From a virus (lineage: Duplodnaviria > Caudoviricetes), in the IMG/VR virus record IMGVR_UViG_3300033076_000560, positions 1 through 30,975 of that record: DNA of 30,975 bases. One strand, given 5' to 3'. Both the position numbers and the translations under genes were made by a program. The notes under the pieces are model-generated. The model did no database searches. It saw only the letters and a list, made by a program, of their open reading frames with translations, and was not told the DNA's origin. Shown here in pieces: positions 1 to 29,195 of the stretch. Each line of letters opens with the position of its first letter. The first letter of the stretch is position 1.

Positions 1-90
1 GCAAACACAAAAATAAAAATAGAATACGTTCACCAATTGCAAAACCTATACTTTGCATTAACAGGAGAAGAATTAACACTAGAGCCATGA
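1..90 (+). CDS. 3' part of the junction-spanning hypothetical protein
   Basis: Frame 1 reads ANTKIKIEYVHQLQNLYFALTGEELTLEP*. YVHQLQNLYFALTGEEL is the C-terminal motif I associate with the ELRLGN/IPLTEEWLLKFGF family of Bacteroidetes phage proteins. Confidence 0.8.
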   Translation, partial: ANTKIKIEYVHQLQNLYFALTGEELTLEP

Positions 91-341
91 GAATCCCACA
101 ACTTCAAAGAATCAAACACATCATTGACTTGCTCAATGACTGCGAGTACCACAAGAATCAGGAGATAATTGACTACCTAGATGACAAGCTCGATATTTGC
201 TATAATGCCAGTACGATTGAAAAGGATATTGCTTTCATCAAAAAAGAGTTTTTAGGTAGATCGTTTACCAGCGGCCGAATTGGTATTAAGATTGAAAAGC
301 CGATTGATTTTTGGGCGGCGTTGCAAACATGGTTAGAATAA
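87..341 (+). CDS. Small winged-HTH DNA-binding protein (resembles the N-terminal HTH of WYL-type regulators)
   Basis: 84 aa; RIKHIIDLL...EIIDYL...STIEKDIAFIKKEF pattern; ATGA coupling to the upstream gene. Confidence 0.55.
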   Translation: MRIPQLQRIKHIIDLLNDCEYHKNQEIIDYLDDKLDICYNASTIEKDIAFIKKEFLGRSFTSGRIGIKIEKPIDFWAALQTWLE

Positions 342-353
342 TTTGTATATTTG
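320..353 (+). promoter_or_regulatory. Bacteroidetes sigmaA-type promoter upstream of the initiator leader
   Basis: TATATTTG at 346-353 matches TAnnTTTG; TTG at 321-323. Confidence 0.6.
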
Positions 354-356
354 TGT

Positions 357-442
357 CTAGGTGTCGCAGACCTAACTAAAGAAATTATTGAAAGCTCATT
401 GAGGAGTAGCACTGCGACTGCGAAACTCAATGGGCTTTTTTG
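357..442 (+). ncRNA. Structured cis-regulatory leader RNA (kissing loop plus terminator-like hairpin)
   Basis: Hairpin TAGGT/ACCTA with loop GTCGCAG (363-369). Long hairpin AAAGCTCATTGAG/CTCAATGGGCTTT plus T-tract, with apical loop CTGCGAC (412-418) complementary to the first loop. Confidence 0.6.
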
Positions 443-470
443 TTGTACTCAAAATTGGGGAAATGAAATA

Positions 471-1451
471 ATGAACAGTTACGAACTATACCGGAAATTC
501 TTTGATTGGTGCTTTGAAAATCCTCATAAAGTTACACCTTCACATGTTGCCATATATTGTTTTGCAATTGAGCATTGCAACCGGTTAGGGTGGAAAACAA
601 ATTTTGGCCTACCTACAACTATGGTAATGGAGGCTGTGGGTATAAAGAGCTACAATACCTACATCAAATGCTTCAATGAATTAGTTGAATATGGTTTCAT
701 AAAATTGGTTGAAAAAAGTAAAAATCAATACTCAGCTAACATAATTGCCCTATCAAAATTTAACAAAGCACTTGATAAAGCACTTGATAAAGCAATGATA
801 AAGCACAAGACAAAGCAACGTGAAAGCATTGCACAAAGCATTGATAGTATAAATAAACCAATTAACAATAATACCAATTTACCAATTAACCAATTTACAA
901 TAGATATAGAGCAGCAAGCTGCGAAATCACAAAATTCAACTCGATTTGTTAAACCTAGTCTTTTGGATATTGAGGTATTTACTCAGGCTAACAACCTAAA
1001 TTTAAACCCCGATCATTTTTTCGATTTTTACGAAAGCAAGGATTGGATGGTTGGCAAAAACAAAATGAAAGATTGGAAGGCGGCAGCTAGAAATTGGGCG
1101 CGTAGAAACGAAACACCACAAAACCAAAACCAAAAACCACAAACACAACTCGAATATGAAAAACAACACATCAACGCCGACGTCTTTAAACATCTTAGAG
1201 GTTTTGAACGAACGGGGAGCATTAGTGCAAGAACGCTTGAAGTCGCGCGGCATTATCTTAGCCAGACGACAACTAGAATCGATGTTCTCGACTTTGCCGG
1301 AATACTTGACAAAATCGAAAATGAAGGCGGAATCCCTGATCAAGCAAATTCTGGAGTTCCGTTACGGCTTGGACTGGGAGAAGCAGAGCAGTTCGATAAT
1401 TACAGCGATATACGAATGTTGCCTAACGATACCGGAGAATTTAACGATTGA
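471..1451 (+). CDS. Phage replication initiator protein (N-terminal wHTH; FFDFYESKDW...MKDWKAAARNW domain)
   Basis: ATG 471 preferred over TTG 351, which lies within the promoter/leader. Motifs typical of Bacteroidetes phage initiators; internal iteron-like repeats. Confidence 0.75.
   Translation: MNSYELYRKFFDWCFENPHKVTPSHVAIYCFAIEHCNRLGWKTNFGLPTTMVMEAVGIKSYNTYIKCFNELVEYGFIKLVEKSKNQYSANIIALSKFNKALDKALDKAMIKHKTKQRESIAQSIDSINKPINNNTNLPINQFTIDIEQQAAKSQNSTRFVKPSLLDIEVFTQANNLNLNPDHFFDFYESKDWMVGKNKMKDWKAAARNWARRNETPQNQNQKPQTQLEYEKQHINADVFKHLRGFERTGSISARTLEVARHYLSQTTTRIDVLDFAGILDKIENEGGIPDQANSGVPLRLGLGEAEQFDNYSDIRMLPNDTGEFND
765..901. repeat. Iteron-like array plus AT-rich repeats: candidate replication origin
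   Basis: AAAGCA at 765, 777, 789, 800, 812, 823 and 835 (11-12 bp period), followed by ~8-bp-period ACCAATT(A/T) repeats at 857-901. Confidence 0.7.
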
Positions 1452-3910: not shown

Positions 3911-4015
3911 ATTGAAGTATATTTGTGTGAGGATAGGTCGGAGTAGCTACCGGCTGACAAGGCGAAGCGTTTACGTTTTCCTCATTCTTTTTTTAAACGC
4001 ATTTTTTTAAACGCA
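3893..4015 (+). promoter_or_regulatory. Promoter and structured leader of the HNH endonuclease gene
   Basis: TATATTTG 3918-3925; stem TGAGGA/TCCTCA (3928-3933/3979-3984); tandem 14-mer TTTTTTTAAACGCA x2 (3988-4015). Confidence 0.55.
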
Positions 4016-4019
4016 CAAT

Positions 4020-4505
4020 ATGCAAAATGAAATCTGGAAAGATATTGCTGGATACGAAGGATTGTATCAAATATCGAACTTTGGAAAGGTCAAGAGCTTT
4101 CAATTAAACACTGAGAAAATTTTAAAATCACCAGCTGATTCTCACGGTTACCGCTTGGTAGTTCTATGTAAAAATAAAAAATGTAAAACCTTTAAAGTTC
4201 ATCAGCTGGTTGCGAGTGCTTTTTTAAATCATGTGCCAAACGGAAACAAAATGGTTGTTGATCACATTAACGATGATAAATCGGACAACAGGCTTGAGAA
4301 TTTACAAGTAGTTAGCCATAGATTTAATAGCAGGAAAACACAAGGCAGATATAGCAGTAAATATAAGGGAGTATCATTGATAAAGTCAAGTAATAAATGG
4401 GCGGCATTAATACAGATAAATGGCCGTCTTAAATATCTAGGTAGCTTTTTAAATGAATATGACGCTCATGTCGCATATCAAACAGCATTAAACAATCTAA
4501 AATAA
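4020..4505 (+). CDS. NUMOD4-HNH-AP2 homing endonuclease (free-standing)
   Basis: NUMOD4 EIWKDIAGYEGLYQISNFGKVKS; HNH VDHINDDKSDNRLENL; AP2-like SKYKGVS...KWAALIQINGRLKYLGSF. Confidence 0.9.
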   Translation: MQNEIWKDIAGYEGLYQISNFGKVKSFQLNTEKILKSPADSHGYRLVVLCKNKKCKTFKVHQLVASAFLNHVPNGNKMVVDHINDDKSDNRLENLQVVSHRFNSRKTQGRYSSKYKGVSLIKSSNKWAALIQINGRLKYLGSFLNEYDAHVAYQTALNNLK

Positions 4506-29082: not shown

Positions 29083-29156
29083 TATCTTTGAATTGTTAGC
29101 AGGGTGATAGCTGTTTTCATGTGTGGGGGGCCCTTATAGAGTGAGCCCCCTTTTTT
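29083..29156 (+). ncRNA. Candidate ~60-nt small RNA (promoter box to terminator)
   Basis: TATCTTTG at 29083-29090; body 29099-29124 antisense to early start codons; GGGGGC/GCCCCC-T6 terminator. Confidence 0.45.
29125..29156 (+). terminator. Intrinsic terminator ending the late region
   Basis: GGGGGC (29126-29131) / GCCCCC (29145-29150) plus TTTTTT. Confidence 0.75.
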
Positions 29157-29195
29157 ATGTCCGTAAAAAAAAATTCACTTTTTTATTAAAATTAT

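What the first reader, a model, noticed from the sequence alone, without database searches (positions are those of the whole stretch)
346..470. Kissing-loop / loop-E attenuator RNA in front of the replication initiator
Seen: immediately after a TAnnTTTG box, hairpin 1 (TAGGT 358-362 / ACCTA 370-374) presents a 7-nt loop GTCGCAG. Hairpin 2 is a 13-bp stem (391-403 / 426-438, with one wobble pair) followed by a T-tract. It contains a GAGTA/GAAA internal loop, and its apical GCA/TGC stem presents the 7-nt loop CTGCGAC, the exact reverse complement of loop 1. Established: AGUA/GAA is the sarcin-ricin/loop-E motif, and loop-loop pairing is used in attenuators and replication-control RNAs. Inference: a tertiary-folded leader that switches termination and so sets initiator dose. 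I cannot assign it to a named RNA family.
Basis: partly seen in the sequence, partly recalled or inferred. Interest (0 to 1): 0.8.

Follow-up and report, generated by a model that had tools for sequence, protein, structure and literature searches.

The report
Kissing-loop leader of phage replication genes
The replication genes of this phage and of over a hundred related phage sequences are preceded by a short two-hairpin leader whose loop letters change together so that they stay complementary, and it likely acts as an RNA gate, not found in Rfam, that sets when the replication genes are expressed.

Summary
The element belongs to a conserved family with no Rfam hit for the window. Of 128 distinct loop-E hairpins, 123 have an upstream complement of their apical loop, against 8 of 60 non-hairpin matches; 92 of 123 follow a TAnnTTTG box. 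The family heads phage replication modules, whichever gene comes first. Two corrections apply. Loop E is exchangeable: behind one shared promoter, 6 of 24 leaders use it. In 30 of 123 members a third, covarying copy of loop 1 lies just before the start codon; this window has lost it. That layout implies kiss = ON: the kiss likely hinders terminator closure and keeps the start free. Termination, direction and trigger are untested. Sister leaders occur in four cultured flavobacterial phages, so the model is testable. Closest known: guanidine-IV topology, P4 CI/P1 c4 layout, S. aureus Teg147 hairpin; none passes membership. An unnamed candidate in PMC10690425 may be the same RNA. This scan noted the general design before on other DNA.

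The parts
87..341 (+). Upstream ORF (84 aa, no family) whose stop lies 4 nt before the promoter box
   Evidence: a same-strand ORF ends within 80 nt of loop 1 in 83 of 107 family members with enough upstream DNA
346..353 (+). TATATTTG, Bacteroidota sigma-ABfr -7 box; predicted start about 356-358
   Evidence: box within 45 nt upstream in 92 of 123 members vs 14 of 472 control windows; consensus from PMC7366714
358..374 (+). Hairpin 1, 5 bp, at the predicted 5' end; loop 1 GUCGCAG at 363-369
   Evidence: loop 1 enclosed by 4 bp or more in 112 of 119 members vs 552 of 1190 shuffled-flank controls
375..390 (+). A/U-rich single-stranded linker, 16 nt
391..438 (+). Hairpin 2: lower stem 391-403/426-438, loop-E internal loop 404-408/422-425, apical stem 409-411/419-421
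412..418 (+). Loop 2 CUGCGAC, complement of loop 1 (and of box 3 in relatives)
436..445 (+). U-tract of the predicted intrinsic terminator; predicted 3' end about 441-443, short RNA about 85 nt
   Evidence: T-run follows the hairpin in 24 of 26 promoter-anchored loci
455..461 (+). Site where relatives with the same code carry box 3 (a copy of loop 1); here 5 of 7 letters differ, so box 3 is lost
   Evidence: alignment A2
464..472 (+). Two-codon mini-ORF (Met-Lys-stop) at the relatives' start-codon position, overlapping the initiator start
471..1451 (+). Probable replication initiator, 326 aa
   Evidence: weak PHROG 18020 'replication initiation O-like' E 2.6e-5; C-terminal part matches Porphyromonas phage 'replication initiation protein'; no Pfam family; the 60% Danklef_1 homologue is annotated 'transcriptional regulator'
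765..817 (+). 4.5 copies of a 12-bp repeat inside the initiator gene, iteron-like
   Evidence: likeness to lambda O iterons is recalled

Best explanation
This is a promoter-proximal leader of about 85 nt at the head of the phage replication operon, one member of a conserved family in which a 5' hairpin loop and the loop of a terminator-like hairpin stay complementary, and it likely works as an attenuator in which the loop-loop kiss is the ON state. Shown: promoter box, two hairpins, covarying 6-8 bp loop complement, U-tract, position before replication genes, and in about a quarter of members a third covarying copy of loop 1 (box 3) 0-5 nt before the AUG. Inferred: loop 2 leaves RNA polymerase before the 3' strand of the lower stem, so loop 1 can catch it first. 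The rigid kissed shape, set by the internal loop (loop E or an equivalent), would slow closure of the terminator stem and let polymerase read on, and it keeps loop 2 off box 3 so the first gene can be translated. If the kiss fails, the terminator would close; any leaked transcript with box 3 would have its start region paired to loop 2. What tips the balance is not shown; the leader's own accumulating short RNA pairing with nascent loop 1, or a phage protein, are the likely triggers. This window has only the transcriptional layer.
For: Loop complement in 123 of 128 hairpin-defined matches vs 8 of 60 non-hairpin matches; 60 of 1406 non-cognate code pairs. In a set chosen by promoter letters only, 24 of 26 loci have kiss, hairpin and U-tract. 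Pairing is confined to the loops, 6-8 bp in 114 of 119, and no classical antiterminator helix exists: upstream RNA pairs with the stem strands at -4.9/-5.6 kcal/mol vs -4.8/-5.1 shuffled and -14.6 for the stem itself. Box 3 occurs in 30 of 123 vs 99 of 3931 non-cognate tests and follows loop 2 through four codes there and two more. If the kiss meant termination, read-through transcripts would be the unkissed ones and box 3 would silence them, so kiss = ON is the coherent reading (inference). Steric antitermination by kissing hairpins is the mechanism proposed for the guanidine-IV riboswitch (PMC7736828; PMC11611296). Bacteroidota initiation is tuned by structure near the start codon (PMC6847099 abstract). 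Of 70 downstream proteins scanned, 25 are initiator- or primase-type, 4 helicases, 12 endonucleases.
Against: No transcript, 3' end or functional data were obtained. The kiss is compatible with the finished terminator hairpin, so it could just as well stabilise a terminated RNA. Box 3 is missing from 93 of 123 members, including this window. Weak hairpins (-3 to -9 kcal/mol) can form around box 3 and the AUG, so loop 2 pairing there might have another effect. No trigger was identified. The members were collected with patterns that fix the loop-E letters and, a T-run, and were filtered on stem pairing, so the stem covariation is partly circular.
Confidence: 0.45

Rival explanations
1. A stable small RNA made between a promoter and a plain terminator (like lambda PR'-6S-tR', recalled; or S. 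aureus Teg147). The kiss clamps its two ends for stability, and a phage antiterminator protein, not the RNA, releases read-through.
For: Hairpin 1 starts 0-7 nt after the promoter box in 59 of 87 members and the predicted RNA is 69-102 nt. Rfam TEG147, listed as a bona fide 60-nt sRNA (PMC5826253), has the same loop-E terminator scaffold. Box 3 is absent from most members.
Against: Box 3 lies beyond the terminator and covaries with loop 2 in six codes, which a purely structural clamp does not explain.
Confidence: 0.27
2. A P4 CI / P1 c4-like antisense system: a processed hairpin-2 RNA acts in trans on loop 1 and box 3 of new transcripts, giving feedback on genome copy number or exclusion of superinfecting phages with the same code.
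For: The same upstream / complement / downstream layout as P4 seqA-CI-seqC, which controls P4 replication genes by premature termination (PMC4825925). 38 code strings among 123 members. One copy per genome in 41 of 42 positive records.
Against: Only 5 of 33 near-complete records searched have a tyrosine integrase and 0 of 31 a resolvase; the window's phage has neither. The code changes slowly: 96 of 98 pairs with scaffold identity of 90-99% share it, so there is no sign of rapid lock-and-key diversification. Loop 2 would be self-occupied unless hairpin 1 is trimmed off. No Rfam C4 or IsrK hit.
Confidence: 0.18
3. A ligand- or ion-sensing riboswitch of guanidine-IV type.
For: Same topology: a 5' hairpin kissing the terminator loop. 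It stands before several non-homologous genes.
Against: No conserved pocket: loop letters vary and the internal loop is exchangeable. The genes behind are replication genes, not transport or metabolism. A strong match was found in 1 of 151 genomes of a flavobacterial order sample.
Confidence: 0.06
4. A DNA-level element: three short operator or iteron repeats, or a single-stranded origin hairpin.
For: Loop 1, loop 2 and box 3 are direct and inverted repeats next to an initiator gene.
Against: Stems keep many G-U pairs that work only on the + strand. The internal loop matches an RNA 3D motif. The iteron-like repeats lie inside the initiator gene instead.
Confidence: 0.04

Closest known systems
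Guanidine-IV riboswitch (GGAM-1/mepA motif; PMC7736828, PMC11611296)
   Same: 5' hairpin whose loop pairs with the loop of an intrinsic terminator; no classical antiterminator strand; steric antitermination proposed.
   Different: No Rfam hit, no conserved ligand pocket, freely changing loop letters, phage replication genes instead of guanidine exporters, and a third box at the start codon.
Phage P4 CI RNA with seqA/seqC, P1/P7 c4 RNA, Gifsy-1 IsrK (PMC4825925; c4 details recalled)
   Same: Leader-derived RNA with a segment complementary to one upstream and one downstream site, in front of replication genes, with premature termination.
   Different: Two simple hairpins and a single 6-8 nt code; no C4 or IsrK Rfam hit; most carriers lack an integrase; trans action and processing not shown; the downstream site is present in only 30 of 123.
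Rfam RF03535 TEG147, Staphylococcus aureus sRNA
   Same: Terminator-like hairpin with a GAGUA/GAAA loop closed by an apical G-C pair and followed by U's; rated a strong 7x6 sarcin-ricin match by JAR3D (PMC13085918).
   Different: Best member scores 35.8 bits against a gathering score of 56.1, the window has no match; longer apical part; the model has no hairpin 1; whether Teg147 has an upstream kissing partner could not be checked.
Unnamed candidate DNAVirus_8377 (also _1270, _4859) of PMC10690425
   Same: 105 nt, 88 sequences, predicted terminator, Bacteroidetes hosts, mostly freshwater, upstream of HNH/NUMOD4/AP2/GIY-YIG genes.
   Different: Its alignment could not be read, so identity is open; the paper's main text has no 'kissing'.
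Lysine riboswitch P2 loop E under the L2-L3 kiss (recalled)
   Same: Loop-E motif in a stem that presents a kissing loop.
   Different: No multi-way junction or aptamer; no Rfam hit.

Membership tests
Any Rfam 15 family | Score at or above the gathering threshold | tested here: not met
   0 hits in the window; only a chance rli40 match at E 1.6 over 250-600; in 20 family loci only a tRNA and a sub-threshold TEG147 match
TEG147 (RF03535) | Gathering score 56.1 bits | tested here: not met
   35.8 bits for L240; no match in G000
TEG147 (RF03535) | Loop-E internal loop in a terminator-like hairpin with U-tail | tested here: met
   consensus alignment; window 391-445
TEG147 (RF03535) | Shared upstream kissing hairpin | not testable with these tools
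   no S. aureus chromosome could be reached; no match in three staphylococcal phages or 151 sampled genomes, and the controls did not ring either
Sarcin-ricin / loop-E motif | AGUA opposite GAA in a 7x6 internal loop | tested here: met
   403-409 and 421-426; same loop letters as the TEG147 loop that JAR3D rates a strong 7x6 match
Sarcin-ricin / loop-E motif | 3D geometry (bulged G triple, S-turn) | not testable with these tools
   needs probing or a structure
Guanidine-IV riboswitch | 5' hairpin loop pairs with terminator loop | tested here: met
   123 of 128
Guanidine-IV riboswitch | Conserved nucleotides and guanidine-related genes | tested here: not met
   no Rfam hit; none of 70 downstream proteins is a transporter by Pfam
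P4 CI / P1 c4 antisense systems | Complementary sites both upstream and downstream of the RNA's pairing segment | tested here: inconclusive
   met in 30 of 123 members, not in this window
P4 CI / P1 c4 antisense systems | C4/IsrK fold and Rfam match | tested here: not met
P4 CI / P1 c4 antisense systems | Processed RNA acting in trans in a temperate phage | not testable with these tools
   indirect only: integrase in 5 of 33 near-complete records
Intrinsic terminator | Stable stem directly followed by a U-tract | tested here: met
   24 of 26 loci chosen by promoter only
Intrinsic terminator | Transcript 3' end in the U-tract | not testable with these tools
   needs Term-seq or in vitro transcription
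Candidate DNAVirus_8377 (PMC10690425) | Same alignment | tested here: inconclusive
   length, host, terminator and gene context fit; alignments unreadable

The most novel reading that the evidence does not exclude
Bacteroidota phages, lytic ones included, time their DNA replication with a protein-free RNA toggle. One terminator loop chooses between two copies of the same 6-8 nt code, one at the 5' end (read on, translate) and one at the start codon (silence). The short terminated RNA feeds back in trans as a genome-copy counter that also excludes phages with the same code.
Probability: 0.2. Interest if true: 0.85.

Novelty: new variant of a known kind. Interest (0 to 1): 0.64.

Why it matters
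How phages of Bacteroidota time their replication genes is, to my knowledge, little studied. This leader sits at the head of the replication module in many of them, whichever initiator or primase follows. It would be an attenuator that works by loop-loop pairing without an antiterminator strand or an evident ligand, a mechanism so far proposed for guanidine-IV. The three-way covariation gives ready-made compensatory mutants. Sister leaders occur in cultured phages of Cellulophaga, Polaribacter and Flavobacterium, so the model can be tested directly. The many natural codes could also serve as RNA control parts for Bacteroidota.

Tried and rejected
Rfam scans of the window gave no family. blastn of the element against annotated phages gave only short chance matches. 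Collecting leaders through the initiator protein was poor: 80 loci, no loop-E leader in the 60 searched with model R1, only four sister leaders; the first loose kissing scan was too noisy to use. The genome-collection pattern was too strict: 4 loci, none a convincing member. The metagenome scan returned one locus whose leader reads like L395's. RNA runs: no RNA holder listed; the one contig set laid is probably this DNA's source and shows no differences; neither is evidence. Rejected: a classical antiterminator helix and kiss extension into strand invasion; rapid lock-and-key diversification of the code; loop E as an obligatory part; autoregulation by one specific downstream protein. The Teg147 locus could not be reached. 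Paper searches that found no description of this RNA; subscription papers are not covered. Four of the 123 (L083, L253, L273, L343) were dropped as probable chance; L273 may be real.

Full report
Setting. The window is a whole 30,975-base virus record, rated 95% complete. It has terminase, RecT, SbcC-like and head genes and neither a tyrosine integrase nor a resolvase. TAnnTTTG boxes stand before several genes; this is the Bacteroidota -7 promoter consensus (PMC7366714, passages). The closest cultured homologue of the gene behind the element is in Polaribacter phage Danklef (60%).

Observation. All letters and coordinates are right. The two-hairpin fold is the MFE of 355-445 (z -2.97) and hairpin 2 alone scores z -4.21; in a wider stretch the signal falls to z -1.50 and hairpin 1 is lost from the MFE. 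The loop pair is unique in the window and arose once in 30 Markov copies. Rfam has no hit.

Family. Pattern scans gave 285 matches to the loop-E frame, 192 distinct; 4 were dropped for missing upstream DNA. Of the 188 left, 128 form hairpin 2. Nothing about loop 1 was selected, yet 123 of 128 have a complement of 6 nt or more to the apical loop just upstream, against 8 of 60 non-hairpin matches and 60 of 1406 non-cognate pairings. There are 38 code strings; several are nested variants, so independent codes are fewer, and many members are close relatives. A TAnnTTTG box lies within 45 nt upstream in 92 of 123, against 14 of 472 control windows. Loop 1 is enclosed by a stem in 112 of 119 (control 552 of 1190), and the kiss stays at 6-8 bp in 114 of 119. 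The hairpin-2 stems covary: 89% of cells paired, 228 double changes, 0 of 500 shuffles, slid controls 27-57% (on 56 chosen members); this is partly circular because members were filtered on pairing.

Unbiased test. A scan fixed only on 18 promoter letters returned 26 loci (19 distinct). Twenty-four have the kiss, the long hairpin and a T-run; 6 use loop E with a 6-7 bp kiss and 18 use another purine-rich internal loop with an 8-9 bp kiss. So kiss and terminator-like hairpin are the constant parts and loop E is one of at least two exchangeable spacers. In one search, all 11 true members had GAGTA/GAAA although the pattern allowed variants, so within its subtype the motif is held.

Genes. Of 70 first downstream proteins scanned (a subset chosen to limit redundancy), 14 are DUF6291, 4 HTH_36, 3 Prim-Pol, one each BT4734/PriCT, DnaG, DUF1376 and Phg_2220_C, 4 helicases, 12 HNH, GIY-YIG or MUG113 nucleases, 1 Bro-N/ANT, 6 others and 22 without family. 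DUF6291-type proteins are annotated 'replication protein' in elemoA phages. Homologues of the window's protein follow the same leader with other codes in L359 (directly) and L430 (one gene on), while its best overall matches L001 and L002 do not. The leader therefore belongs to the replication operon, not to one protein. It is single-copy in 41 of 42 positive virus records and gave one strong match in 151 genomes of a flavobacterial order sample. The window's gene is probably an initiator: weak PHROG match, C-terminal match to a named initiator, and 12-bp repeats inside it.

Box 3. In 30 of 123 members a copy of loop 1 lies after the U-tract, 0-5 nt before the AUG (background 99 of 3931). It follows loop 2 through four codes in that set and two more in the promoter-anchored set, one of them in the non-loop-E subtype. 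The three relatives with the window's own code all have it; the window keeps the spacing but differs at 5 of 7 letters, and the old start now opens a two-codon ORF overlapping the initiator start. AUGs are under-represented near Bacteroidetes starts (PMC6847099, abstract only), so this may damp initiation; that is speculation.

Mechanism. There is no classical antiterminator helix. Loop 1 and box 3 are tethered on either side of hairpin 2, 16 nt from the stem base in the window for loop 1, and can only compete for loop 2. Loop 1 is made first. If the kiss meant termination, escaping transcripts would be the unkissed ones and box 3 would silence them; kiss = ON is the coherent reading. A steric block of terminator closure by kissing hairpins was proposed for guanidine-IV (PMC7736828 and PMC11611296, passages). 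All of this is inference; no RNA data were available.

Against an immunity lock-and-key: 5 of 33 near-complete records searched have a tyrosine integrase, none of 31 a resolvase, and 96 of 98 pairs with 90-99% scaffold identity share their code. The window and L391 do differ in code at 88% identity, so switches occur.

Cultured phages. Four of five records examined through their replication genes have a promoter box, a 7-9 nt complement between the 5' segment and the hairpin loop, and a T-run in front of the replication module: Danklef_1, Cellulophaga phi13:2, Flavobacterium elemoA_1-9A and lillamy9-1. None is of the loop-E subtype; in whole-record searches model R1 scored only the lillamy9-1 leader, weakly. 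In Arctus_1 the stretch fetched had no such intergenic gap.

Known relatives. P4 CI with seqA/seqC has the same three-site layout and controls replication genes (PMC4825925, passages), but fold and Rfam match are absent. Rfam TEG147 shares the loop-E terminator hairpin below threshold; I saw passages of PMC5826253 (plus supplement rows), PMC13085918, PMC7779021 and PMC3053349 on it. In PMC10690425 (passages and supplement tables) the unnamed candidate DNAVirus_8377 fits in length, host and context; its alignments were unreadable, so prior anonymous cataloguing is not excluded. Searches found no description of the kissing leader. Lambda PR'-6S, c4 details and the lysine riboswitch comparison are recalled.

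Earlier notes of this scan describe kissing-loop terminator leaders in other phages, one with a third copy at the start codon; look-ups by this sequence and by the loop-E words found nothing. I found box 3 before reading that note. The notes are not counted as evidence.

Verdict. A real, conserved RNA leader family absent from Rfam; a new variant of leader-based attenuation; mechanism probable, not shown. Interest 0.64.

Noticed in passing
window 3918-4022: A second promoter box followed by a branched, terminator-like leader before the NUMOD4/HNH/AP2 gene. An internal 7-mer at 3967 has two complementary copies at 3994 and 4008, just before the AUG; no Rfam family. L001 has a leader of similar look before its initiator.
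   Followed up: partly
window 1156-1451: The initiator ORF overlaps the next ORF (1156-1908) by about 295 nt in another frame. L003 has homologues of both in a similar overlap, and Danklef_1 genes 43 and 44 overlap by 92 nt, so it is probably not an assembly error.
   Followed up: partly
window 464-472: Two-codon ORF Met-Lys-stop overlapping the initiator start, where relatives have their start codon.
   Followed up: partly
window 87-341: 84-aa ORF without family ending just before the promoter; by eye it looks like a winged helix-turn-helix and could be a regulator.
   Followed up: no
window 29083-29160: Another TAnnTTTG box followed by two hairpins and a T-run after the last gene of the lysis region; no loop complement was found by the scan.
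   Followed up: partly
L481-L506, L020, L021, L033, L041: Sister subtype with a GA-rich internal loop, 10-nt apical loop and 8-9 bp kiss, behind the same promoter.
   Followed up: partly
L240 890-939: Sub-threshold match to S. aureus TEG147; Teg147 could be the terminator half of a similar leader.
   Followed up: partly
G162 C1 3863-3925: Second, weaker match to model R1 in one record; not inspected.
   Followed up: no
L336 and L226 elements: Members with a much longer spacer (56-58 nt) between loop 1 and loop E.
   Followed up: no
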